Origin: a phage | Assembly: GCA_025677605.1 (NCBI GenBank) | Contig: GCA_025677605.1_4110.1 | DNA length: 64,000 nt | Direction: 5' to 3' (one strand) | Part shown: positions 14,848 to 58,156 of the stretch, piece after piece | Numbering within the stretch: position 1 is the first letter of the stretch | How the letters are laid out: the number at the start of each line of letters is the position of its first letter | Notes under the pieces: model-generated | Database searches by the model: none | What the model saw: only the letters and a program-made list of their open reading frames with translations | What the model was told of the DNA's origin: nothing | Translations under genes and position numbers: made by a program

Positions 14848-15474
14848 TCAGTTTTTCGTATAAATAATATCCAGTGCTTTGTTTTCTAGGTCTTTTATAG
14901 TTCCATTATTCTTGATAATATAATGTGGGTTGTTAATACCAATCCATGCCCATTCAGATTCATGTACTGATTCCAGTTCAACTGGTTTCATTTGGATATC
15001 ACCTTTATTGTATGATGCTGCTAGACCATACCAGAATGGTAAATTGCGTTGAACTTCAATGATGATACCGTTATTTTCACGAATCATTTTCAATTCATTT
15101 GGAAAACGACAATCAGTAATGATAATGTTACCTTCTATGTCCATCATAGAACGTTCTAAACTGAATACCCAAATGTCATTATGCAAATAACGACGAACTA
15201 CATTAGTACCGTAATTTTGCAGTACCCAACGTGGTGAAACATCATCACGTCCTAATTTATTACACCAGTACTGATCCGGTTGTTCACGAATAGCACGACC
15301 TTCTTTAGTAGTTCCTTCTAGCATTTCCCTGTCCCAGCCAAAAATAGCTGCAACTGAATCTTTCAGGTTCTTTGCAAACGACATACGGGTATATCCATTA
15401 TCGATGAATGTTTTAGCGTATGTATCTTTACCACTTCCTATTGAGCCATTGATGGCTACGATTTTTCTTTCCAT
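14848..15474 (-). CDS. deoxynucleoside monophosphate kinase (T4 gene 1-like)
   Basis: P-loop GSIGSGKDT at the N-terminus and overall resemblance to the T4 dNMP kinase pattern; 208 aa. Confidence 0.65.
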   Translation of the reverse strand: MERKIVAINGSIGSGKDTYAKTFIDNGYTRMSFAKNLKDSVAAIFGWDREMLEGTTKEGRAIREQPDQYWCNKLGRDDVSPRWVLQNYGTNVVRRYLHNDIWVFSLERSMMDIEGNIIITDCRFPNELKMIRENNGIIIEVQRNLPFWYGLAASYNKGDIQMKPVELESVHESEWAWIGINNPHYIIKNNGTIKDLENKALDIIYTKN

Positions 15475-16626: not shown

Positions 16627-16839
16627 TTAGCTTAGTCTATCGTACCAACAACGCAAATAAACTAAGTTAACAAAGTGTTCAGTATCTATCATATCAAGGA
16701 AACCAAATATACTAACTGAATATATATGTTTCCCATCATGATAGTATATTATATAGTCTTGATTTGGCTCAATCCAGTAATGAGTATTTCCGACTATTAA
16801 TTTATGATTATAAACACCTGTTAAAAGATGATCGCTCAT
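16627..16839 (-). CDS. hypothetical protein (70 aa)
   Basis: ORF in track; TAATG overlap with the upstream gene. Confidence 0.4.
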   Translation of the reverse strand: MSDHLLTGVYNHKLIVGNTHYWIEPNQDYIIYYHDGKHIYSVSIFGFLDMIDTEHFVNLVYLRCWYDRLS

Positions 16840-17216
16840 TAACTTATCTTTGTACAGTTAGTGACAATGTGTTCAATATCTTTTTTAGTGAAGGGGCCGA
16901 GTACTAGAACCTCTTCCCCATTACCAAACATACTTAGTGGTACTGACTGCTGATTCGCAAGATATTCAATCTGCATCATTTCATCCATGTCATCTGCTTC
17001 ATAGACAACTTGTTCCAGTTCATTGTCTTTAATCCATGAATCCCAATGAGCTTTAAACTGTTTGGCTTCATATTCTTGAACATAGTTAGGGGATGCTGGG
17101 TTGTACTGATGTAGCATAGTCATGCCAGCCATAACCAATTCTTTTGGTGATGGGGTTTTACCTTTCAGTACTACGATAGCTTGAATAGTTTTTGCTTTCA
17201 CTTCATTAGCAGCCAT
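16839..17216 (-). CDS. hypothetical protein (125 aa)
   Basis: ORF in track; ATG at 17216. Confidence 0.45.
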   Translation of the reverse strand: MAANEVKAKTIQAIVVLKGKTPSPKELVMAGMTMLHQYNPASPNYVQEYEAKQFKAHWDSWIKDNELEQVVYEADDMDEMMQIEYLANQQSVPLSMFGNGEEVLVLGPFTKKDIEHIVTNCTKIS

Positions 17217-17228
17217 TTTATACCTCTA

Positions 17229-17537
17229 TTATAGGATGATTTTGTTGTCAGGGACAATCAACGCTGGCTTATCTTCTAGAGTCTTAATTGCTTCAACATA
17301 AGCATCAACCAGTGCAGGGTTTGCATCACTGATACTGATGATGTTAGATTTGAAGAAAATAACACCTTTTTCTGAACTAATAAATTCTAGATAATCACGT
17401 AGAATGATTTCACCTTTTTCGTCAGTACCTAGCTGTGCTGGGTAGTTAACTACTACTGCTTCTGGAGCATCGGTTTGTAGAACTGCTAGTACTGGGCCAA
17501 CGTTGTTGATGTTTAGTAGTTTAACGGTAATAGTCAT
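17229..17537 (-). CDS. hypothetical protein (about 103 aa)
   Basis: Track ORF trimmed to internal ATG at 17537 (RBS AAAAGGA) to remove a 130-nt overlap with the macro-domain gene. Confidence 0.4.
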   Translation of the reverse strand: MTITVKLLNINNVGPVLAVLQTDAPEAVVVNYPAQLGTDEKGEIILRDYLEFISSEKGVIFFKSNIISISDANPALVDAYVEAIKTLEDKPALIVPDNKIIL

Positions 17538-17556
17538 TTTTGTCAAGTCCTTTTGT

Positions 17557-18033
17557 TTATTTGAGAATATATAAATGTTTTTCAGCATTAACCAGCCTGT
17601 GGTCAATGATTTCTTTGATAACGTTCCAGTTACCACCGCCCAAATCGGCTCCAATTTTCGGAAAGTGTACATGAACATTTCGTTCAATTTTACAGAAAAA
17701 ATTCAAATGCATGAAAACGTCATCAATGGCATCATAGCTTACGTATTTTGCACCATCAGTTCCGTACCATTTTTGAGTAATGCAGTTTGCGATAATCAAA
17801 TCATCATTAATTGCTGAATATGCAATTTGTCCGGTTCTTAGAAAACCCATTCTCTTTTCATATTCTTTATAATCATCATATGCCTTTGGGTACTGCATTC
17901 TGAGTTCTTTTGCAAAACCAGAACCCATTTTACCTTGAGCATTACAACCATGAGCTATAATATGTAATGCAGTATGATCATCAGTTACAGTACTGAATAA
18001 TTCAAACAGATTACCGTGATGTTCATGTATCAT
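17557..18033 (-). CDS. macro domain protein (ADP-ribose binding/processing)
   Basis: Macro-like motifs HIIAHGCNAQGKMGSGFA and C-terminal FPKIGADLGGGNW; ATG at 18033 with GGAG RBS (the track start at 18069 is TTG). Confidence 0.6.
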   Translation of the reverse strand: MIHEHHGNLFELFSTVTDDHTALHIIAHGCNAQGKMGSGFAKELRMQYPKAYDDYKEYEKRMGFLRTGQIAYSAINDDLIIANCITQKWYGTDGAKYVSYDAIDDVFMHLNFFCKIERNVHVHFPKIGADLGGGNWNVIKEIIDHRLVNAEKHLYILK

Positions 18034-18087
18034 GTGTTCTCCGAAAAGAAAAGGACTCGAATATATCAAGTCCTTTATATTATTAGG

Positions 18088-18330
18088 TTATTCTTCTTCA
18101 CCGAAACGAATTTTCTTCAATTCTTTTCGATGCTTTCTTGCTATTGTACTTTTGTGAAGTCTATTACTACGTTTTGTGTCTTTTTCAATATACCAGCTAT
18201 CTTCTGGTGGATTGAAGTCACAATAACCATCTTCCGTAATTGTTCCTAAGAATGCAGATTTTTTAGGAATATTTGTTTGAGCTTTAGTCTGAAATTGACC
18301 TTTTGCTAATTGTTCACGAAAACTGAGCAT
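18088..18330 (-). CDS. hypothetical protein (about 80 aa)
   Basis: ORF in track; ATG at 18330 with GGGAGA RBS. Confidence 0.4.
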   Translation of the reverse strand: MLSFREQLAKGQFQTKAQTNIPKKSAFLGTITEDGYCDFNPPEDSWYIEKDTKRSNRLHKSTIARKHRKELKKIRFGEEE

Positions 18331-18380
18331 AATAGTATCTCCCAAATTGTTAAGAAGAACTTGTTGTTCTTCAATATTAT

Positions 18381-18620
18381 TTAGGGGTTTTTTACAACCT
18401 CATGTGAAGCAATAAATGCTAAAATATCATCTTTACTAAACACTTCAATAATGTGAGAAATAGCAGCATCGTATTCTTCACGTCTTGATGTGTATTCTTT
18501 CATTTCATGAATTTTCTTTTGAGCTTTTTGTTTTGATTGGTTGATATCTGGAGTTTCAAATTTAACTCCCAAACTGTCAGCCAATGCACGTGCTCGTGAT
18601 GATACCTTATCGATATTCAT
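18381..18620 (-). CDS. hypothetical protein (79 aa)
   Basis: ORF in track. Confidence 0.4.
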   Translation of the reverse strand: MNIDKVSSRARALADSLGVKFETPDINQSKQKAQKKIHEMKEYTSRREEYDAAISHIIEVFSKDDILAFIASHEVVKNP

Positions 18621-18868
18621 TAGTTCCAGCGACCTTCTTTTAGCCCGTTAACAAAACCAGTACATCCACCAGGAACATACTCATCATTTACGAAAATTTG
18701 TGGAACTTGACGAACTGGCTCACCGCAAATTTCTGATAGTTTAGCACCATCAATACCTTCAGAAACCACATCGATAAAATCCATTTCAAATGAATTGTTC
18801 TCACAAATTGCTTTTGCTGTATCACAGAAATTACAACCAGTCGTGCGACCATAAATTTTCACTTTCAT
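18620..18868 (-). CDS. glutaredoxin/NrdC-like thiol-disulfide oxidoreductase
   Basis: CxxC active site (CNFC) near the N-terminus, 82 aa, C-terminal VPQIFVNDEYVPGG pattern typical of phage glutaredoxins. Confidence 0.65.
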   Translation of the reverse strand: MKVKIYGRTTGCNFCDTAKAICENNSFEMDFIDVVSEGIDGAKLSEICGEPVRQVPQIFVNDEYVPGGCTGFVNGLKEGRWN

Positions 18869-18872
18869 ATAA

Positions 18873-19289
18873 CTATCCTTTATTTTTTTGAAACAATTTA
18901 ACAGCTTTAATTATACTGTTACACATTCGTTCGGTCAAATACTTTTGACAATCTTGAACATCAATGTACATGAATTTATCCAATTCTGGATGGCTTTTAC
19001 CATATCGATTGGTATAAGTACTGTTACACTTCAGTTCATCCGGTTCGGGTTTGTATTTAGCTGTATAGAAAAATAAAACTAATCTTTTCCCTTTCCTGTA
19101 TGATACATCACCTAATAAGAGAAGATCCTTTTCATCAATCTCAAATCCTGTTTCTTCATAGCACTCACGAACAGCAGCTTCAGCAAATGTTTCATTGCCC
19201 TCGGTTTTACCTTTTGGTAAATCCCAATGCTTCTGTCCGTGTTGTGTGTCCAACAAGTATCTGACCATCACGATAAAATATAATGCCAC
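18873..19289 (-). CDS. NUDIX hydrolase
   Basis: Canonical Nudix box GKTEGNETFAEAAVRECYEETGF (GX5EX7REUXEEXGU). Confidence 0.8.
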   Translation of the reverse strand: MALYFIVMVRYLLDTQHGQKHWDLPKGKTEGNETFAEAAVRECYEETGFEIDEKDLLLLGDVSYRKGKRLVLFFYTAKYKPEPDELKCNSTYTNRYGKSHPELDKFMYIDVQDCQKYLTERMCNSIIKAVKLFQKNKG

Positions 19290-19341
19290 AACTATAACGC
19301 ATAATCTTATCTCTTAATAGCAATGATGCCCAGATACAATT

Positions 19342-19350
19342 ATTATATCA
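19342..19350 (-). promoter_or_regulatory. extended -10 element TGaTATAAT (no clear -35)
   Basis: Minus-strand TGATATAAT about 50 nt upstream of the NUDIX ATG, in the 86-bp gap after the CCA gene; same 9-mer as the consensus promoters at 3524 and 3617. Confidence 0.3.
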
Positions 19351-19375
19351 GAAGTCGTTCTCTTTTCCCAGAGTT

Positions 19376-20488
19376 TTAAAACATTTGTTGAATTGCTTCA
19401 CAACGTAAAACTGAAACAAAATCACGGATTTCAGATGCTTCTAACTCACCGTCTTTTACCAGTTGTTGAATATCTGGAAGTACTACATCAGTGTAACGAT
19501 CATATACCTTAATGATTAAATCTTCAAGGTCTAAATCAATCTCTTTACGTAGAATAAAATATTCCAGTACTTTGTAAAGGAATTCTTCACCGCCGTTATT
19601 CTTGATATTCATATCCAGTAATAATTGTCCCATTTCATTTGGGGTCTTTTTACGGAATGCCTTGATATCATCACGGAAACGTTTGATGTAATTACTGAAT
19701 TTAACGTACTTAACGGGCATTTTAATAGCACCATTCAGTACTGAATCCTCACCAATTTCTTCTTTCTCAAGAAGCACAGACCATAAGAAATATGGCTTAT
19801 ATGCTTCAGTACAATTATCAGAGATATGATCAATGAGTTCCAATGACTTTTTGGTTAATGTAGCATTAAATGCTTTTTCATAGTAACCAAACTTACTTAG
19901 TGTTTTAAGGAACTTAGCTGGCTTTTCTTCTGACAGTGCTTTTTCAAATTCAACATAAACACGGTCTGGAACAAGGTGATTTAGCTCACCAGACGCTACC
20001 ATATCGATTGCAAGTGCTTCAGTAGTCTCGTGTATAGAGAAATCAGAATAACGCGTAGCAAAGCGAGCTAGACGTAATACACGCAATGGATCTTCTTTGA
20101 AGTGTTCGGATACATGACGTAGTACTTTATTCTTGATATCAGCTTTACCACCGTATGGGTCGATGTGAATTTGCAGTACTGGATCATACGCGATTGCATT
20201 AATTGTAAGATCACGACGATACAAATCTTGTTCCAGTGTTACACCTTTTGTATCCACTTCGAAGCCACCGTATCCAGTACCAGTTTTTCGTTCAGTACGG
20301 GCTAATGCGTGTTCGTTACCTTCTGGGCTTAGATAAACTGGAAAATCTTTACCAACCTGTTTATATCCAATACTTTCTAAGTATTTGATATCAGATTCAG
20401 TTGCACCAACAATGACATAATCTTTGTCCTTTGCACGAATGCCCATTAGACGGTCGCGGCAGTATCCACCAACAAGGTATTTTTTCAT
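19376..20488 (-). CDS. cca: tRNA nucleotidyltransferase (CCA-adding enzyme)
   Basis: N-terminal LVGGYCRDRLMG with DxD-type nucleotidyltransferase motif; about 370 aa; ATG at 20488 with GGGAGAA RBS. Confidence 0.8.
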   Translation of the reverse strand: MKKYLVGGYCRDRLMGIRAKDKDYVIVGATESDIKYLESIGYKQVGKDFPVYLSPEGNEHALARTERKTGTGYGGFEVDTKGVTLEQDLYRRDLTINAIAYDPVLQIHIDPYGGKADIKNKVLRHVSEHFKEDPLRVLRLARFATRYSDFSIHETTEALAIDMVASGELNHLVPDRVYVEFEKALSEEKPAKFLKTLSKFGYYEKAFNATLTKKSLELIDHISDNCTEAYKPYFLWSVLLEKEEIGEDSVLNGAIKMPVKYVKFSNYIKRFRDDIKAFRKKTPNEMGQLLLDMNIKNNGGEEFLYKVLEYFILRKEIDLDLEDLIIKVYDRYTDVVLPDIQQLVKDGELEASEIRDFVSVLRCEAIQQMF

Positions 20489-20624
20489 TCTTATTCTCCC
20501 ATCAACCAATCACGCAGACTTTCCCAGAAGCCTTTTGGCTTGTATTCTGGAACTTGATATTCGTCGGTTCCTTGTTCAGAAACACCCCAATCTTCTTCTA
20601 ACATTGCAATCATAAAGCCTCCAA

Positions 20625-21047
20625 TTAAATTAATCTGTCACGCAAGCGGGATTCATATTGTTTATGTATAGATAGTATATACTGAAATGAAGAATAGTCA
20701 ATACCAAATGTGTCATCAATGAACATATACTGGGCCAGTACTTCAGGTCCATCATCAACTACAGGCAATGAACCTGCTTTTTTTTCTAACACATTCCATG
20801 CAAACTCATCGGAAGTATCAAATCTATGGTATTGTAGTTCTATCTTACTTTTTCTTAGTATAATTAATAATTCATCACCATCATCATATGCATTACGGAT
20901 TTTAATACGTACTGTTCCTTGTAACTGGTTAGTATACATTACGCGATATTGGTTGTATGTGACTAAACCACGTCTTTCAGTACTGAACTCTTGTTCAGAA
21001 AAGTACTTTAACGTTTCGTTGAATTTGGGTATTTTAGTAACGTCCAA
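20625..21047 (-). CDS. hypothetical protein, tandem paralogue A (140 aa)
   Basis: C-terminal region (QYMFIDDTFGIDYSSFQYILSIHKQYE) is paralogous to the next gene; apparent TTG start at 21047 with GAGGA RBS. Confidence 0.45.
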   Translation of the reverse strand: MDVTKIPKFNETLKYFSEQEFSTERRGLVTYNQYRVMYTNQLQGTVRIKIRNAYDDGDELLIILRKSKIELQYHRFDTSDEFAWNVLEKKAGSLPVVDDGPEVLAQYMFIDDTFGIDYSSFQYILSIHKQYESRLRDRLI

Positions 21048-22089: not shown

Positions 22090-22117
22090 AAGAAAAGGGA
22101 CAGAATTAATCTGTCCC
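22090..22117 (-). terminator. putative terminator hairpin after hpf
   Basis: 7-bp perfect stem GGGACAG/CTGTCCC with 7-nt loop directly after the HPF stop; the U-run is short. Confidence 0.35.
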
Positions 22118-22126
22118 TTTATTATA

Positions 22127-22459
22127 TTACTCTTCTTCGTCAGTTACATCAACTACAACTGGACGGTCTGGATGGTTTCGGCGGTGCAATTTAATGCTTT
22201 TGTCTTTACTGAATACAGTTTCCATTTTTTCGAATGAATCGACAATCGCCTTGTATAAATCTGCATCATCGGCAGTAACAGACTTACCACCTGATGTTAA
22301 AGTTACTGCGTACTGTGTCTTATGCTCTTTTTTCACATGAACACCAATATTCAGTACTGAAGAATCACTAAATTTATTTAGAGTGTTTGCTTCTTGATGA
22401 ATTGCGTCATGGATTGCTGGAGTAATATCAACATTACCTTGAATAACTAGATTTAGCAT
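22127..22459 (-). CDS. hpf: ribosome hibernation promoting factor (HPF/YfiA/RaiA family)
   Basis: 110 aa; N-terminus MLNLVIQGNVDITPAI and the DLYKAIVD core align with the bacterial HPF pattern as recalled; RBS AAGGAAGG. Confidence 0.75.
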   Translation of the reverse strand: MLNLVIQGNVDITPAIHDAIHQEANTLNKFSDSSVLNIGVHVKKEHKTQYAVTLTSGGKSVTADDADLYKAIVDSFEKMETVFSKDKSIKLHRRNHPDRPVVVDVTDEEE

Positions 22460-54714: not shown

Positions 54715-56154
54715 TTACATATTTTCTTCTGCAAACTCTGCAAGTGCAGAACGTACAACACCTTCCAATTCAATGATACGACACCCTTCCCAATCTTTGA
54801 ATTTTTCAGTTACATATGTCAAACCACTATTAACTGGACTAATAAACTTACTATCAATCTGTGCTAAGTTACCCATAATGATAACCTTACAGTTTTGACC
54901 TGCACGGGTAAGAATAGTTTTTGCCTGTGCAGGGGTGATGTTCTGGAATTCATCAACAATTAGAATTGTATTAGTAAAAGAACGACCACGAATAAAGTTC
55001 AATGCTTTAAACTGCATTACGTTACGTTTGAGAATCTCTTCAATGCTACCTTGTGGGTTAGCATCATCTTTGTGTAGATACTCTAGAGCATCGATTGCAG
55101 CCCCACAGAATGGGATGACCTTTTCAGCTTCAGAACCGGGTAAGAAACCAATTTCTTCAAATTGTGAATCTTGTGTTTTGGAGAAGATGATACGATCGTA
55201 TTTACGCTTCTCTAGTACTAATTCGAGTGAAGTAGCAACAGTAATCAATGTTTTACCAGTACCTGCTGAACCAAGTAGTACTGTCAAATGTACATCAGGG
55301 TCAAGAATACTGTTAATTGCTAGTGCCTGTTGAATATTCTTTGCTTTAATATCCCAAACTTTAGCACGAAGAGCGATACTTTGACCAATATCCTGGAATA
55401 CCAAAATATCTTCAGGTGTTAGTGAACCGTCTTCTTCTTCGATAGCAGATTGACCTTCGTATACGAATAGTACATCAGCATTATCATATAGATAATCACC
55501 AATACATAGATTATCTGGAAGAACATCTTGAATCAATGCGGTTGGAATATAGTGATATAGACGGCGACCTTCTTGTTGGGATTTAATTTCAGCATTGTTA
55601 ACTTCACTGAATGTTTTCCAGAAATCAATATCAAGGTGGTGCTGCCCAATATGAATCAACTCACTATCTTCGATTGCAACGTCATGACGGTAATCTTGTA
55701 CCTCAACACCGTAGCTCATTGCTTTGATACGCATGTTAATGTCGCGAGTTACCAGTACTGATTGTGATGCCAAAGCCACTAGAATGATTTTGTCATCTGG
55801 TACAGTACTTTTAAGTAGAGTTTCTACTTTATCTTCACTGCCGCCCATACGAATAAGTGCTTCAGCTTCTTCATTCGTCATAACGAATAGCTTACTGGAT
55901 GCATCCATATTTTTGTGGATATTGGCAATATTAACACCAGTACTGCTGATTTCTTCATGAGTAGCATCTTTCAAAATTGCATCGATGTTACGGATTGCGA
56001 AACGTGCATCACGTGATACGTCAACATTACGGCTCTTGATTGAATCAAGTTCTTCAAGAACAGTGAATGGTAGAATCACTGCTGCCCCATCAAATGCTAC
56101 GGTTGCATTTGGATCGGATAGTAGTACGTTTGTGTCAATTGTGTATTTTTTCAT
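54715..56154 (-). CDS. phoH: PhoH-like ATPase with N-terminal PIN domain (PhoH2-type)
   Basis: N-terminal PIN-like segment (YTIDTNVLLSDPNA…), Walker A GSAGTGKT, Walker B ILIVDEFQN; ATG at 56154 with AAGGA RBS (the track start at 56178 is GTG). Confidence 0.8.
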   Translation of the reverse strand: MKKYTIDTNVLLSDPNATVAFDGAAVILPFTVLEELDSIKSRNVDVSRDARFAIRNIDAILKDATHEEISSTGVNIANIHKNMDASSKLFVMTNEEAEALIRMGGSEDKVETLLKSTVPDDKIILVALASQSVLVTRDINMRIKAMSYGVEVQDYRHDVAIEDSELIHIGQHHLDIDFWKTFSEVNNAEIKSQQEGRRLYHYIPTALIQDVLPDNLCIGDYLYDNADVLFVYEGQSAIEEEDGSLTPEDILVFQDIGQSIALRAKVWDIKAKNIQQALAINSILDPDVHLTVLLGSAGTGKTLITVATSLELVLEKRKYDRIIFSKTQDSQFEEIGFLPGSEAEKVIPFCGAAIDALEYLHKDDANPQGSIEEILKRNVMQFKALNFIRGRSFTNTILIVDEFQNITPAQAKTILTRAGQNCKVIIMGNLAQIDSKFISPVNSGLTYVTEKFKDWEGCRIIELEGVVRSALAEFAEENM

Positions 56155-56218
56155 AAAACATCCTTGAGTTATGAGCACATCCTTGTGCTCTACGGTAGAT
56201 TATAGACTCAGACACTTC

Positions 56219-56518
56219 TTATTGTGGCTCATAGTCAACGTAGCAGCGGTGACCGCGAGCCTTTTCTGTCCAGCATTCATTGTAAACAATTTGCCCAACT
56301 GAAACTGGTTTCCTTGATGCTCCATACTTAATAGACCCATCTTCAGTCTTATAAGTAAATGAACATGTATTTTCTTCACACTGCCCTATGTCAGTAACAA
56401 CAGCAGTACGGTAGTATATATCTCTGTGTTTGGTTTGATCTTGATGATAAAAGAACCAAAACCCAATAAGAAATATAATACTTGTGATTATAAAGCTTTG
56501 TATATGATGTTTTGTCAA
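56219..56518 (-). CDS. small membrane protein (99 aa)
   Basis: N-terminal TM helix (FIITSIIFLIGFWFFY), Cys-rich C-terminal part. Confidence 0.4.
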   Translation of the reverse strand: MTKHHIQSFIITSIIFLIGFWFFYHQDQTKHRDIYYRTAVVTDIGQCEENTCSFTYKTEDGSIKYGASRKPVSVGQIVYNECWTEKARGHRCYVDYEPQ

Positions 56519-56847
56519 TTGTCCCCTCTCAAAAATCTAAAACCATTCTGTAAGTACGTGTCAATGTTGACCTTCCCTACAGGATTACTGCTATGGATGA
56601 TATAATCGAATTCAGTACTGATATTGTTTTCGACCATATAATCAATTAGAAATTTTGCAAATGAATACCCTGTCTTTTCATCCTCCCCAACATCACCTAA
56701 GTCATGATCGAAGCTAATAAATTGTGGTAAACCATGTTCATTTACATAAGCACATGCACTTTCATAATCACGACATAAAACCATGTTTTGATTTGGATAA
56801 TACTTTTCAGGATCACGAATATCATCCAGAAACATTGAGTAAGACAT
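56515..56847 (-). CDS. hypothetical protein with FLDDIRDP and FDHDLGD motifs (110 aa)
   Basis: ORF in track; co-transcribed immediately downstream of the NUDIX-like and SIR2 genes. Confidence 0.4.
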   Translation of the reverse strand: MSYSMFLDDIRDPEKYYPNQNMVLCRDYESACAYVNEHGLPQFISFDHDLGDVGEDEKTGYSFAKFLIDYMVENNISTEFDYIIHSSNPVGKVNIDTYLQNGFRFLRGDN

Positions 56848-56858
56848 TATAATTCACC

Positions 56859-57407
56859 TTATAAGTAACTAATCAGTAAATTCTCGGATTGAACAAGATG
56901 TTCTAATTCCATTTTAGCAGTTCCTATGAAGTTTTGTGTCATAAGATTATTATATCCTGCTTCTCGGTTTTGTCCCTTTGAATAACGAGAAATGTGACAT
57001 AAATTAACACCAGCCACTTCTGCACTTGCATGTTTAGCAGTACTGTATCCATCGCGAATCGCTTTCAATTCTTCGTAAGTAACTTCATAACTATAGCTAT
57101 GGGTATGTGCTCCTAGATATAGTTCGTAAGTTTTCAATGGTTTCAATTGTTCGATGAAAATATTATAATTCATCTCTTCCTGAATTTCACGGAATAGTGC
57201 ATCTTCTAAGGTGGCATCGGTATCTTCGACTGTTCCACCACAACCACCCAGTAAACCATCCCAACGAAGCTGGAGTAATACCAGATTCACAACAGGGATA
57301 TCATTTAATTCATAACCTTTATATGGGTTACAATTTCGAGCAAAGAAGTAACAGAATACAAAGTTTGCTCGTTTACCATACTCACCTAGAGGTACTTCTC
57401 GAATCAT
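56859..57407 (-). CDS. NUDIX-like hydrolase (degenerate Nudix box)
   Basis: Segment GGCGGTVEDTDATLEDALFREIQEEM contains the REUxEE core with non-canonical spacing and no trailing Gly; ATG overlaps the SIR2 stop (ATGA). Confidence 0.5.
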   Translation of the reverse strand: MIREVPLGEYGKRANFVFCYFFARNCNPYKGYELNDIPVVNLVLLQLRWDGLLGGCGGTVEDTDATLEDALFREIQEEMNYNIFIEQLKPLKTYELYLGAHTHSYSYEVTYEELKAIRDGYSTAKHASAEVAGVNLCHISRYSKGQNREAGYNNLMTQNFIGTAKMELEHLVQSENLLISYL

Positions 57408-58156
57408 TTCATTCTATCCTTAATGATAGTTTCCAGTACTGGAATCGCTTTTGTAGCTGGTTTTATAATTTTTTCATTGAACATGAAATCGTTATCATTT
57501 TTTCTGATGTTGATATTAATACTAAAGCATGGCAAACAAGCAACCAGATGTGACCATTTCAGTACTGTGTCACTGCTACCAATGACTACAACTGTATCAT
57601 CTTCTGTTAAGGATTGCAATACTAAATTACGCTCATCGTATATTGGGAGTTTTTCACCATCAACATAACGATAATATTCACCAATGAACACTACGTTTGG
57701 TTTCGCAAAGACACCTTCTTTCGGAATGTACGGTTCATAACCACAATCCACAATACTATAATCGTCACCACCAATTGTAAAATTCTCAATAACTTCTTTT
57801 AAATTACCATGTAACTTTAATTCATTGCCACCAATACGAGTATAGAGATCATCCATATTCGAAGTCATATGTAAAAAGTTATCACCGTATGTATCTTCTA
57901 GAGATTTGATATAATAATGCATATCATTAGGAACACAATCTTTCATTTTAACACGTAATGTGTTATAGAAAGTATGCACTAAATGGTACTTAGTACTAAG
58001 ACGTGCAATGTTACATACATCATTTATTTGAAATTGATCCCATAGGCCATCGTCCATGCGAAACGGTTCCATCCCACTTTCAACGGATAGACCTGCACCG
58101 GAAATAACCAATACACGTTTATTACCTTTATTTTTTATAAAAGAGTCAGAAATCAT
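57404..58156 (-). CDS. SIR2-family (sirtuin-like) NAD-dependent protein
   Basis: Sirtuin catalytic motifs in order: GAGLSVESGMEPFR, TSNMDDL (NID-like), LHG (catalytic His), GSSDTV; no zinc-ribbon cysteines seen; 250 aa. Confidence 0.7.
   Translation of the reverse strand: MISDSFIKNKGNKRVLVISGAGLSVESGMEPFRMDDGLWDQFQINDVCNIARLSTKYHLVHTFYNTLRVKMKDCVPNDMHYYIKSLEDTYGDNFLHMTSNMDDLYTRIGGNELKLHGNLKEVIENFTIGGDDYSIVDCGYEPYIPKEGVFAKPNVVFIGEYYRYVDGEKLPIYDERNLVLQSLTEDDTVVVIGSSDTVLKWSHLVACLPCFSININIRKNDNDFMFNEKIIKPATKAIPVLETIIKDRMK

What the first reader, a model, noticed from the sequence alone, without database searches (positions are those of the whole stretch)
17557..20488. Cluster of macro domain, glutaredoxin, NUDIX and CCA-adding enzyme genes
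A macro domain protein (HGCNAQGKMGSGFA … FPKIGADLGGGNW), a canonical NUDIX hydrolase and a tRNA nucleotidyltransferase lie within 3 kb. Together with the SIR2/NUDIX-like pair at 57 kb, this phage carries an unusually full toolkit for ADP-ribose handling and tRNA 3'-end repair. That is consistent with countering host ADP-ribosylation or tRNA-targeting defences, although nucleotide salvage is an alternative.
Basis: partly seen in the sequence, partly recalled or inferred. Interest (0 to 1): 0.45.

Follow-up and report, generated by a model that had tools for sequence, protein, structure and literature searches.

The report
Jumbo-phage accessory genes; frameshifted NUDIX
The macro, glutaredoxin, NUDIX and CCA-enzyme genes are real and already annotated in related giant E. 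coli phages, but they look like independent helper genes rather than one toolkit, and the NUDIX gene carries a conserved one-base frameshift that may need ribosomal slippage to be read.

Summary
On the minus strand at 17557-20488 lie a macro domain gene, two small unknown genes, a glutaredoxin, a NUDIX gene and a CCA-adding enzyme gene. The window is an Asteriusvirus jumbo coliphage, 98% identical to phage A4, and GenBank relatives already carry these labels.

- **Macro:** an ALC1-like macrodomain homologous to T4 Tk.4/AdfM, which was recently shown to protect T4 from DarTG2. The likely role is removing ADP-ribose from phage DNA.
- **NUDIX:** a homologue of T4 NudE.1.
- **CCA enzyme:** it keeps the catalytic head and neck of E. 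coli Cca but has no HD phosphatase motif. Two of six (A4) and four of seven (ECO103) phage tRNA genes lack an encoded CCA end.

The gene order is conserved across Rak2-like jumbo phages but not elsewhere. A conserved terminator-like hairpin precedes the macro gene. I therefore see no evidence for one ADP-ribose/tRNA module.

New here: in all eight Asteriusvirus genomes checked, the NUDIX gene has one extra base after codon 21. Both parts are under purifying selection in their own frames. The zero-frame codon at the junction is CGG, the rarest codon in the window. This suggests programmed +1 frameshifting. Some relatives fuse NUDIX to glutaredoxin.

The parts
19376..20488 (-). Class II CCA-adding tRNA nucleotidyltransferase, 370 aa. 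Head and neck are conserved; the C-terminal half has no HD motif.
   Evidence: Pfam PolyA_pol E 7e-18 and PolyA_pol_RNAbd E 1.8e-7. It is 52% identical to E. coli Cca over aa 1-207 only. E. coli Cca gives a Pfam HD hit at E 2.4e-14, but the phage C-terminus gives none. In hhalign, the E. coli 'LCHDLGK' motif aligns to phage 'SDNCTEAY'. D21, D23, R91-R92-D93 and E132-D133-x-x-R136 are invariant in alignment A7.
19240..19302 (-). NUDIX N-terminal piece: 21 codons, MRYSCGIIFYRDGQILVGHTT, with its own ATG and an AAGAG ribosome-binding site. It lies in the frame offset by one base from the rest of the gene.
   Evidence: It matches the in-frame N-termini of orthologues in sister genera. Across eight Asteriusvirus genomes the variable sites fall 1/0/6 by codon position, with dN 0-0.02 against dS 0.17-0.67. 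In the AF2 model of the intact orthologue P0121, these residues form beta strands 1 and 2.
19207..19239 (-). Shift site and zero-frame tail. The extra C is at 19239, in the context ACA ACA C GGA CAG. The zero frame reads CGG and stops at TAA 19209-19207 after 10 codons.
   Evidence: The junction is identical in 8 of 8 Asteriusvirus genomes and absent from all relatives outside the genus. CGG is the rarest sense codon in the window's genes, 4 of 17,514. The zero-frame tail varies in sequence and length between genomes.
18873..19238 (-). NUDIX main piece: 121 aa from GQKHWDLPKGK, containing the canonical Nudix box GKTEGNETFAEAAVRECYEETGF. It is a NudE.1 homologue.
   Evidence: Pfam NUDIX E 2e-12. 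It is 42% identical to T2 NudE over 92 aa, E 1e-17. dN/dS is 0.06-0.08 within the genus. Foldseek neighbours of the orthologue model are RppH, Ap4A hydrolase and Dcp2.
18620..18868 (-). GrxA-like glutaredoxin, 82 aa, CNFC active site. Its start lies 4 nt after the NUDIX stop.
   Evidence: Pfam Glutaredoxin E 4e-9. NCBIfam GrxA scores 66 bits, below the cut-off of 84. It is fused to NUDIX as one 225-227 aa ORF in six clusters of relatives.
18381..18620 (-). 79-aa protein of unknown function. It has no cysteine and only a weak, sub-threshold glutaredoxin match.
   Evidence: phrog_34640 E 5e-29, unknown function. Pfam Glutaredoxin scores 17.7 bits against a cut-off of 22.9.
18088..18345 (-). 80-85-aa basic protein of unknown function.
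   Evidence: phrog_15319 E 7e-48, unknown function. It is conserved in the syntenic block.
18050..18076 (-). Terminator-like hairpin followed by a T-rich run, immediately upstream of the macro gene.
   Evidence: An 11-pair stem followed by TCTTTTCGG. Phage 121Q keeps a hairpin here with a different stem sequence, GGACTCTG...CAGAGTCC.
17557..18033 (-). ALC1-like macrodomain of the SCO6735/BT1257 and Tk.4 type, 158 aa. It is a candidate AdfM.
   Evidence: N31, G37, G39, Q87, P125 and G128 are invariant or conserved in alignments A1 and A9.
17229..17537 (-). 102-aa protein of unknown function (phrog_527).
   Evidence: phrog_527 E 1e-19. The true start is ATG 17537.
16839..17216 (-). 125-aa protein, possibly PTH2-like. 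This is unproven.
   Evidence: Pfam PTH2 scores 20.6 bits against a cut-off of 23. In a profile search of the PDB the top two hits are Pth2 proteins, but at E 0.6-0.7.

Best explanation
This is a run of separately acting accessory genes, inherited together as part of the conserved genome layout of Rak2-like jumbo phages.

1. **Macro.** The macro protein is an orphan ALC1-like macrodomain of the T4 Tk.4/AdfM and SCO6735 type. It most likely removes ADP-ribose that host DarT2 puts on thymidines in phage single-stranded DNA, which would neutralise DarTG2 defence. The homology is shown; the activity is inferred.
2. **NUDIX.** The NUDIX gene encodes a NudE.1-type pyrophosphatase. NudE.1 acts on ADP-ribose, Ap3A, FAD, NAD and NAD-RNA caps. 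In this genus the gene is split by one extra base after codon 21. Both parts are under purifying selection in their own frames. I infer that the full-length enzyme is made by a +1 ribosomal frameshift at ACA-CGG-A. There the very rare CGG codon would stall decoding, and GGA would be read instead.
3. **Glutaredoxin.** It works with NUDIX or in the same pathway, because the two are fused in some relatives. It may also act as a redox partner for nucleotide metabolism.
4. **CCA enzyme.** It has lost the HD motif of E. coli Cca and acts only as a CCA adder. Its first job is to complete the phage's own tRNAs that lack an encoded CCA end. Repair of damaged tRNA 3' ends is a possible by-product.
For: **Identity and synteny**
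- The window is 98% identical to phage A4 and about 82% to 121Q and PBECO4.
- The same gene order occurs in Eneladusvirus, Mimasvirus and metagenomic relatives.

**Macro**
- AF2 model pLDDT 93.6. Foldseek finds BT1257, Poa1p, SCO6735, DarG and TARG1.
- The DarG profile is the only hit in NCBIfam (E 1.4e-7) and in PADLOC (E 1.8e-10).
- It is 31% identical to T2 Tk.4 over 135 aa, E 1e-12.
- N31 aligns with PhiKZ AdfM N23. Q87 aligns with SCO6735 Gln85 and is invariant in 77 homologues.
- T4 Tk.4 knock-out sensitises T4 to DarTG2 (bioRxiv 10.1101/2025.11.20.689424). PhiKZ AdfM removes DarT2 marks from DNA (PMC13309987). SCO6735 reverses thymidine-linked ADP-ribosylation (PMC9411070).

**NUDIX**
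- Homology to NudE, E 1e-17. NudE.1 substrates are described in bioRxiv 10.1101/2024.04.04.588121.
- The frameshift is present in 8 of 8 Asteriusvirus genomes and absent from all relatives examined outside the genus.
- Selection statistics are and CGG rarity.
- N-terminal residues form beta strands 1-2 in the model, pLDDT 94.7.
- Pfam coverage extends from profile position 26 to 7 once the N piece is joined.

**NUDIX-glutaredoxin fusions**
-.

**CCA enzyme**
-.
- tRNA genes lacking CCA: 4 of 7 in ECO103 and 2 of 6 in A4.
Against: - No biochemical or genetic data exist for any of these proteins in this phage group.
- The macro protein is equally similar in fold to Poa1p, an ADP-ribose-1''-phosphatase. 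It has Gln, not the catalytic Lys of DarG, TARG1 and PhiKZ AdfM.
- For the frameshift, no slippery re-pairing is possible (ACA to CAC). No Shine-Dalgarno-like or RNA-structure stimulator was found. Invariance of the shift site itself is not beyond what the low local divergence allows. A split protein, or an N-truncated product from the internal ATG, is not excluded.
- Host Cca could complete the phage tRNAs without a phage enzyme.
- Hairpins do not prove separate transcription.
Confidence: 0.6

Rival explanations
1. One reading: the genes form one integrated counter-defence toolkit. Macro strips ADP-ribose from targets, NUDIX destroys the released ADP-ribose, and the CCA enzyme repairs tRNA 3' ends cut by host defence nucleases. 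All of this would work together with the SIR2/Nudix/cREC/PIN-PhoH locus at 55-58 kb.
For: - The families fit the NAD/ADP-ribose and RNA-repair networks proposed for jumbo phages. These include Macro to ADP-ribose to Nudix to AMP, and CCA enzymes restoring tRNA ends (PMC7824862, read; PMC9503650, read).
- NudE.1 hydrolyses ADP-ribose (bioRxiv 10.1101/2024.04.04.588121).
- The 57-kb locus matches the predicted sirtuin RNA-repair neighbourhood.
- A possible PTH2 and an HPF homologue lie nearby.
Against: - Adjacency occurs only within one related phage group. Macro (2,420 phage records) and CCA (500 records) are not neighbours elsewhere, for example in phiTE.
- A conserved hairpin separates the macro gene.
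- The only fusion evidence links NUDIX to glutaredoxin, not to macro or CCA.
- I found no report of a defence that a phage CCA enzyme counters.
Confidence: 0.15
2. The region is pure housekeeping and nucleotide salvage. Glutaredoxin feeds ribonucleotide reductase, NUDIX cleans nucleotide pools, the CCA enzyme matures phage tRNAs, and macro acts as a Poa1p-like ADP-ribose-1''-phosphate phosphatase that clears by-products of RNA repair.
For: - The window is rich in nucleotide-metabolism genes: dNMP kinase at 14848-15474, and thymidine kinase, dCMP deaminases and anaerobic RNR in the A4 annotation.
- Poa1p is among the top fold matches, E 1e-9.
- The family is labelled 'phosphatase' or 'Appr-1-p processing' in databases.
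- Some phage tRNA genes lack CCA.
Against: - The closest sequence relatives are BT1257 and SCO6735, and the closest characterised phage relative is Tk.4/AdfM, which has a genetic DarTG2 phenotype.
- The 'phosphatase' label is an inherited annotation, not a test.
- No Tpt1/KptA gene was seen in the window.
Confidence: 0.15
3. The NUDIX gene of this genus is simply broken. The frameshift would be an inactivating mutation, and either nothing useful or only an N-truncated protein from the internal ATG (MVRY...) is made.
For: - GenBank annotators call a 131-136 aa ORF from the internal ATG.
- No classical slippery sequence or stimulator was found.
- T4 NudE.1 is non-essential (bioRxiv 10.1101/2024.04.04.588121).
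Against: - The main piece has dN/dS 0.06-0.08 at dS 0.7-1.7, so it is expressed and useful.
- The N piece keeps its ATG and ribosome-binding site, has no stop codon, and varies almost only at third positions of its own frame (6 of 7 sites; binomial p about 0.007).
- The overlapping frame of the internal-ATG product changes non-conservatively in the same stretch: LLDTQH, LSDIQH, LLVIQH, LSGIQH.
- There is no Shine-Dalgarno sequence before the internal ATG.
- The missing 21 residues are two core beta strands.
Confidence: 0.2

Closest known systems
T4 Tk.4 / AdfM (anti-DarT factor macrodomain; bioRxiv 10.1101/2025.11.20.689424) and PhiKZ gp104 AdfM (PMC13309987)
   Same: Both are orphan single-domain phage macrodomains of about 155-160 aa in the ALC1-like class. 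The window protein is 31% identical to T2 Tk.4, E 1e-12, and shares the HGCN...MGSG and P(K/R)IGAxxGxGNW loops. The Asn equivalent to PhiKZ N23 is conserved.
   Different: Identity to PhiKZ gp104 is marginal, covering only 44 aa. PhiKZ has the DarG-type Lys, whereas this protein and Tk.4 have Gln. No DarTG2 test exists for this phage group.
Streptomyces SCO6735 and Bacteroides BT1257 (PDB 5E3B, 2FG1; PMC9411070)
   Same: These are the best sequence and fold matches. A Gln sits at the position of SCO6735 Gln85, which is essential for removing ADP-ribose from thymidine in DNA.
   Different: They are cellular rather than viral proteins. In my alignment the loop after the Gln is two residues shorter here. 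SCO6735 also acts on proteins.
DarG antitoxin of DarTG2
   Same: The macrodomain matches the DarG profiles in NCBIfam and PADLOC.
   Different: It has no C-terminal DarT-binding domain (158 aa against about 338; 31 bits against a cut-off of 250), no adjacent darT gene, and no catalytic Lys.
T4 NudE.1 (gene e.1)
   Same: The window protein is 42% identical over 92 aa, E 1e-17. Both are about 140-aa single-domain Nudix proteins whose structure resembles RppH (the same is noted for NudE.1 in bioRxiv 10.1101/2024.04.04.588121).
   Different: In this genus the gene is interrupted by a +1 frameshift. It is translationally linked to a glutaredoxin, and fused to it in relatives. Its substrates are untested.
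E. coli Cca (multifunctional CCA-adding enzyme)
   Same: The head and neck are 52% identical, with all class II catalytic motifs present.
   Different: There is no HD phosphohydrolase motif or Pfam HD hit. The 'multifunctional ... phosphatase' annotations in A4, XbC2, Sharanji and slurp01 are therefore unsupported.
Programmed +1 ribosomal frameshifting (E. coli prfB, yeast Ty3, Listeria phage PSA; from general knowledge)
   Same: Two overlapping frames are both under selection, the shift occurs at a slowly decoded zero-frame codon (CGG), and a single nucleotide is skipped.
   Different: There is no slippery P-site re-pairing as in prfB, no upstream Shine-Dalgarno-like stimulator, no stop codon at the A site, and no experimental proof.

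Membership tests
Macrodomain, ALC1-like class (TARG1/DarG/SCO6735) | Macro fold | tested here: met
   AF2 model pLDDT 93.6. Foldseek against BT1257, SCO6735, DarG and TARG1 gives E 1e-11 to 1e-7 and TM 0.73-0.83. Pfam alone is sub-threshold, 17.2 against 22.
Macrodomain, ALC1-like class (TARG1/DarG/SCO6735) | ADP-ribose-binding loops and the conserved Asn | tested here: met
   N31, G37, G39, P125 and G128 are invariant across the window protein, T2 Tk.4, BT1257, SCO6735 and PhiKZ gp104 and across 77 homologues.
Macrodomain, ALC1-like class (TARG1/DarG/SCO6735) | Catalytic Lys of DarG (K80) and TARG1 (K84) | tested here: not met
   The position is Gln87, as in SCO6735 Gln85 and BT1257. This matches the SCO6735 subclass rather than DarG or TARG1.
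AdfM (phage anti-DarT2 macrodomain) | Homology to T4 Tk.4 and orphan single-domain architecture in a phage | tested here: met
   BLASTP E 1e-12 against T2 Tk.4. The protein is 158 aa, with no DarT gene or DarG C-terminal domain nearby.
AdfM (phage anti-DarT2 macrodomain) | Removes ADP-ribose from thymidine in ssDNA and protects the phage from DarTG2 | not testable with these tools
   This needs an in vitro de-ADP-ribosylation assay and plaque assays of a deletion mutant on DarTG2-carrying E. coli.
DarG antitoxin | C-terminal DarT-binding domain and a neighbouring darT gene | tested here: not met
   NCBIfam DarG scores 31 bits against a cut-off of 250 and matches profile positions 19-139 of 338 only. 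No darT is present in the neighbourhood.
Nudix hydrolase superfamily | Nudix box GX5EX7REUXEEXGU | tested here: met
   GKTEGNETFAEAAVRECYEETGF is read directly from the sequence. Pfam NUDIX E 2e-12.
Nudix hydrolase superfamily | Complete fold encoded by one open reading frame | tested here: not met
   Beta strands 1-2 (21 codons) are in a different frame. Coverage of the Pfam profile starts at position 26 for the ORF, and at position 7 only after joining the pieces.
T4 NudE.1 family | Sequence homology to NudE.1 | tested here: met
   42% identity, E 1e-17 against T2 NudE. There are 1,278 phage records with hits, mostly T-even-like phages.
Class II CCA-adding enzyme | Head-domain motifs (GG, DxD, RRD, EDxxR) and the neck RNA-binding domain | tested here: met
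   NCBIfam PRK10885 scores 272 bits over positions 1-201 only, below the full-length cut-off of 451.
Multifunctional E. coli-type Cca (with HD phosphohydrolase) | HD domain with the His-Asp metal-binding dyad | tested here: not met
   Positive control: E. coli Cca gives Pfam HD E 2.4e-14. The phage C-terminus gives no hit, and 'CHD' aligns to 'CTE'.
Glutaredoxin | Thioredoxin-fold Grx domain with a CxxC site | tested here: met
   Pfam E 4e-9, with a CNFC site. It falls below the GrxA equivalog cut-off, 66 against 84 bits.
Programmed +1 ribosomal frameshift | Both frames under purifying selection on either side of a conserved junction | tested here: met
   See for the selection statistics. The junction is identical in 8 of 8 genomes.
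Programmed +1 ribosomal frameshift | Slow zero-frame codon at the shift site | tested here: met
   CGG is the rarest sense codon, 0.23 per 1000.
Programmed +1 ribosomal frameshift | Stimulatory element (Shine-Dalgarno-like sequence or RNA structure), or P-site re-pairing | tested here: not met
   The upstream GGN is not conserved as a Shine-Dalgarno sequence. Only a weak downstream hairpin of -6 kcal/mol without covariation was found. ACA cannot re-pair on CAC.
Programmed +1 ribosomal frameshift | Trans-frame protein product | not testable with these tools
   This needs proteomics or a reporter assay.
Functional gene cassette (macro + NUDIX + CCA) | Linkage maintained outside one vertically related lineage | tested here: not met
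   In phiTE the macro gene is at 21.9 kb and the CCA gene at 65.5 kb. The other phage groups that carry these genes were not checked for adjacency.
PTH2 peptidyl-tRNA hydrolase (neighbour gene 16839-17216) | Significant match to PTH2 profiles or structures | tested here: inconclusive
   Pfam scores 20.6 against 23. A single-sequence PDB search found nothing. In the profile search the top two hits are Pth2 proteins, at E 0.6-0.7.

The most novel reading that the evidence does not exclude
Asteriusvirus phages express their NudE.1-like Nudix hydrolase only through a conserved programmed +1 ribosomal frameshift. The shift would occur at ACA-CGG-A, where a 'hungry' rare Arg codon is overlapped by GGA. 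The amount of enzyme would then depend on the tRNA supply of the infected cell. The enzyme would work as a unit with the adjacent glutaredoxin, to which it is fused in sister lineages. If so, this would be a new recoding site in a phage accessory gene and a previously unnoticed Nudix-glutaredoxin pairing.
Probability: 0.4. Interest if true: 0.6.

Novelty: new member of a known kind. Interest (0 to 1): 0.4.

Why it matters
**Annotation value.** The cluster itself is ordinary: the genes belong to known families and are already annotated in relatives. Three corrections are still useful.
- The macro gene can now be read as a likely AdfM-type anti-DarTG2 factor in therapeutic-candidate jumbo coliphages.
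- The 'multifunctional CCA/phosphatase' label is wrong for these phages.
- The NUDIX gene is mis-annotated as a truncated ORF across the genus.

**Possible new biology.**
- If the +1 frameshift is programmed, it adds a rare bacterial-virus example of +1 recoding at a hungry codon. It would also offer a simple system for studying how the tRNA pools of infected cells tune expression.
- The NUDIX-glutaredoxin fusions give a testable clue to the still unknown in vivo role of NudE.1-type enzymes.

Tried and rejected
- **Sigma-70 promoter scan.** It found 37 sites against 42 expected by chance, so it says nothing about operon structure.
- **Stimulatory RNA structure downstream of the shift site.** I found only a weak hairpin without covariation. 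Two of my five sequence ranges were mis-registered.
- **Structure prediction of the joined (frameshift-corrected) window protein.** I modelled the 90%-identical intact orthologue P0121 instead.
- **Reversion of the frameshift in the intact relative L036.** An NJ tree of the NUDIX gene put L036 next to the window. Flanking genes, however, show L036 as an outgroup: it is 69-78% identical to the window, against 81-92% for 121Q. A single origin of the frameshift is therefore sufficient, and the NUDIX similarity is a local mosaic or rate effect.
- **Extra constraint on the shift-site nucleotides.** Zero of four synonymous sites vary, but this is not significant given the low local divergence (own estimate, P about 0.2).
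- **PTH2 identity of the 125-aa neighbour.** This stays inconclusive.
- **A suppressor tRNA with an enlarged anticodon loop.** The phage Thr-UGU and Gly-UCC tRNAs have normal 7-nt loops, by inspection of the sequences.
- **Literature search for a phage CCA enzyme acting as counter-defence.** I found only the comparative-genomics prediction.

Full report
**What is there**

The window comes from an Asteriusvirus jumbo coliphage. Region 17000-21000 is 98.2% identical to Escherichia phage A4 and about 82% identical to 121Q, PBECO4, phAPEC6 and other members of the genus. All genes of the finding lie on the minus strand.

In transcription order they are:
- CCA-adding enzyme, 20488-19376
- NUDIX, 19302/19289-18873
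- glutaredoxin, 18868-18620
- a 79-aa and an 80-85-aa protein of unknown function
- a hairpin at 18076-18050
- the macro gene, 18033-17557
- a 102-aa unknown protein
- a 125-aa possible PTH2-like protein

The block sits between a lysozyme plus an HPF/RaiA-like gene on one side and neck, dNMP-kinase and tail-sheath genes on the other. GenBank records of A4 and 121Q already label the macro, NUDIX, glutaredoxin and tRNA nucleotidyltransferase genes.

**Macro protein**

Pfam Macro is sub-threshold, 17.2 against 22 bits, but the identification is solid on other evidence:
- phrog_335, E 1.6e-43.
- Sequence hits to solved macrodomains: BT1257 (E 8.5e-14), SCO6735 (E 1.4e-9), Poa1p and DarG.
- DarG as the only hit in both NCBIfam (E 1.4e-7) and PADLOC (E 1.8e-10).
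- An AlphaFold2 model with pLDDT 93.6, whose best Foldseek matches are BT1257, Poa1p, SCO6735, DarG and TARG1.

The ADP-ribose-binding features are present. In 77 homologues H28, N31, G39, N83, Q87, G91, P125 and G128 are invariant. N31 aligns with PhiKZ gp104 N23, and the glycine loops align across all five reference sequences.

At the position of the catalytic Lys of DarG and TARG1 the protein has Gln87. This matches SCO6735 Gln85, which is essential for removing ADP-ribose from thymidine in DNA (PMC9411070; alignment).

The family is present in 2,420 phage records, including T-even gene tk.4. The window protein and T2 Tk.4 align at 31% identity over 135 residues, E 1e-12. Three experimental results bear on function:
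- A 2025 preprint showed that tk.4 is the only T4 gene needed specifically on DarTG2-expressing E. coli, and named it adfM (bioRxiv 10.1101/2025.11.20.689424).
- A 2026 paper showed that the PhiKZ macrodomain gp104 removes DarT2-made ADP-ribose from DNA (PMC13309987).
- E. coli strains carry DarTG (PMC7003065 abstract).

The best-supported function is therefore an orphan antitoxin-like enzyme that erases DarT2 marks from phage DNA. This is inferred from homology and was not tested.

**NUDIX gene**

The Nudix box is canonical. The protein is a homologue of T-even NudE.1, with 42% identity over 92 aa, E 1e-17. NudE.1 hydrolyses ADP-ribose, Ap3A, FAD, NAD and NAD-RNA caps in vitro and is auxiliary in vivo (bioRxiv 10.1101/2024.04.04.588121).

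Aligning the window protein with orthologues from Yersinia and Xanthomonas jumbo phages showed that its N-terminus did not match. The DNA explains why:
- The expected N-terminus, MRYSCGIIFYRDGQILVGHTT, is encoded from an ATG at 19302 with an AAGAG ribosome-binding site.
- It lies in a frame offset by one base from GQKHWDLPKGK...
- The junction reads ACA ACA C GGA CAG, with the extra C at 19239.

All eight Asteriusvirus genomes examined share exactly this junction: the window, A4, 121Q, SD-2_S15, fEgEco12, JNE01, UE-S1 and ECO103. All relatives examined outside the genus are in frame: K64-1, fHe-Yen9-03, XbC2, thirteen IMG/VR contigs and four metagenomic contigs. Gene calls of the truncated ORF occur on dozens of independent assemblies, so this is not an assembly error.

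The gene is not decaying:
- Within the genus the main piece has dN/dS 0.06-0.08 at dS 0.7-1.7.
- The 63-nt N piece has dN 0-0.02 against dS 0.17-0.67.
- Seven sites vary in the N piece, and six of them are third positions of its own frame. A binomial calculation gives about 0.007 for six or more of seven.
- In the same stretch the other frame, that of the annotated internal-ATG product, changes non-conservatively.
- The zero-frame continuation after the junction is not conserved and stops after 8-10 codons.

In a confident model of the 90%-identical intact orthologue (pLDDT 94.7), residues 2-8 and 14-20 are the first two beta strands of the fold. Joining the pieces also extends the Pfam match from profile position 26 back to position 7.

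The zero-frame codon at the junction, CGG, is the rarest sense codon in the window's genes, 4 of 17,514. The overlapping +1 codon is GGA, for which the phage carries its own tRNA-Gly(UCC).

I conclude that a full-length enzyme is most likely made by a +1 ribosomal frameshift at a hungry codon. The weaknesses of this reading are:
- no P-site re-pairing is possible;
- no Shine-Dalgarno-like or structural stimulator was found;
- no product was observed;
- a split two-piece protein is not excluded.

I found no paper describing this.

**Glutaredoxin**

It is a GrxA-like protein with a CNFC site. Its start is 4 nt from the NUDIX stop. In the closest intact relative the two ORFs overlap by 4 nt. In six 90%-identity clusters of relatives the two are one 225-227-aa NUDIX-glutaredoxin protein at the same syntenic position. 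This is the only evidence for functional coupling inside the cluster, and it links NUDIX to glutaredoxin rather than to macro or CCA.

**CCA enzyme**

The head and neck are 52% identical to E. coli Cca, with all catalytic motifs invariant. Similarity ends at residue 207.

E. coli Cca gives a clear Pfam HD hit, but the phage C-terminus gives none. In a profile alignment the E. coli 'CHD' motif faces 'CTE'. The 'multifunctional ... phosphodiesterase/phosphatase' annotations in several relatives are unsupported.

The window has no tRNA gene, but the genus does:
- ECO103 4-12-1 has seven tRNA genes, and four lack an encoded CCA end: Thr-UGU, Asn-GUU, Ser-ACU and Gly-UCC.
- A4 has six, and two lack it: Asn and Thr.

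All E. coli tRNA genes encode CCA (established knowledge). A phage that brings CCA-less tRNA genes therefore has a direct use for extra CCA-adding capacity. Repair of damaged 3' ends, as proposed for jumbo phages in PMC7824862, remains possible. I found no experimental support for a counter-defence role.

**Is it one module?**

The order lysozyme-HPF-...-CCA-NUDIX-Grx-...-macro-...-neck-dNMP kinase-sheath is conserved in Asteriusvirus, Eneladusvirus, Mimasvirus and metagenomic relatives. That is, it holds across the Rak2-like jumbo group.

Outside that group macro and CCA genes are common but, in the one phage checked, not adjacent: in phiTE they lie at 21.9 kb and 65.5 kb. A terminator-like hairpin with a T-run lies between the 85-aa gene and the macro gene. 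Phage 121Q keeps a hairpin there with a different stem sequence. The clustering is therefore best explained by inherited genome layout.

The 57-kb locus is a coherent unit in its own right: SIR2, a Nudt16-like Nudix, cREC, a 99-aa protein and PIN-PhoH. It matches the sirtuin-centred RNA-repair neighbourhood predicted in PMC9503650.

**Verdict**

The finding is real but largely already known. It is unproven for NUDIX. For the CCA enzyme a simpler explanation fits better. The genuinely new points are the conserved frameshift in the NUDIX gene, the NUDIX-glutaredoxin fusions, and the loss of the HD motif in the CCA enzyme.

Noticed in passing
window 54715-58156 (-): Five-gene run: SIR2 (57404-58156), a Nudt16-like Nudix (56859-57407, overlapping SIR2 by 4 nt), cREC (56515-56847), a 99-aa protein, and PIN_4+PhoH (54715-56178). 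It matches the sirtuin-centred NAD-dependent RNA-repair neighbourhood predicted by Iyer et al. 2022.
   Followed up: partly
window 16839-17216 (-): A 125-aa protein with repeated sub-threshold signals for peptidyl-tRNA hydrolase PTH2. Pfam scores 20.6 against 23, and the top two profile hits in the PDB are Pth2 proteins at E 0.6-0.7. Only eight close homologues were found.
   Followed up: partly
window 22127-22459 (-): A ribosome hibernation factor (HPF/RaiA)-like gene next to the lysozyme gene. It scores 34.8 bits on TIGR00741 against a cut-off of 40.9. A palindromic hairpin at 22094-22120 follows it.
   Followed up: no
L001 6486-7553 (phage A4), corresponding to window about 20489-20490: The closest relative, A4, has an extra 1,068-bp gene (A4_535, 355 aa, with a DUF4379 treble-clef zinc finger) inserted immediately upstream of the CCA gene. 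The window lacks it, so it is probably a mobile gene.
   Followed up: partly
L001 4382-4869 (phage A4); window 18381-18868: The GenBank annotation of A4 labels the cysteine-free 79-aa protein 'glutaredoxin' and the real glutaredoxin 'hypothetical'. The labels appear to be swapped.
   Followed up: yes
L038 and L039, 4001-4684: Metagenomic relatives encode NUDIX and glutaredoxin as one 227-aa protein in the same syntenic position. There are six such clusters at 90% identity.
   Followed up: partly
L008 32316-32504 (phage ECO103 4-12-1): Two odd tRNA genes: a 90-nt tRNA with a CAU anticodon and a long extra arm, and a Ser-type tRNA with an ACU anticodon. In A4 the latter is a normal Ser-GCU.
   Followed up: no
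window 18873-19238 compared with L036: The NUDIX main piece is 85.5% identical in DNA to metagenomic contig L036, whereas most flanking genes are only 69-78% identical to it. Against 121Q most of these genes, NUDIX included, are 81-92% identical. This is a local mosaic or rate anomaly.
   Followed up: partly
window 17557-18069 and 17229-17687 (-): The mechanical ORFs of 170 aa and 152 aa are over-extended from TTG codons. The real starts are ATG 18033 (GGAG ribosome-binding site) and ATG 17537. The extension of the first overlaps the hairpin.
   Followed up: yes
L003 21198-21530 (phage A4 A4_492; window about 46 kb): A DUF4326 gene sits between the anaerobic ribonucleotide reductase genes. DUF4326 has been proposed to process phosphates on ADP-ribose derivatives (PMC9503650).
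   Followed up: no
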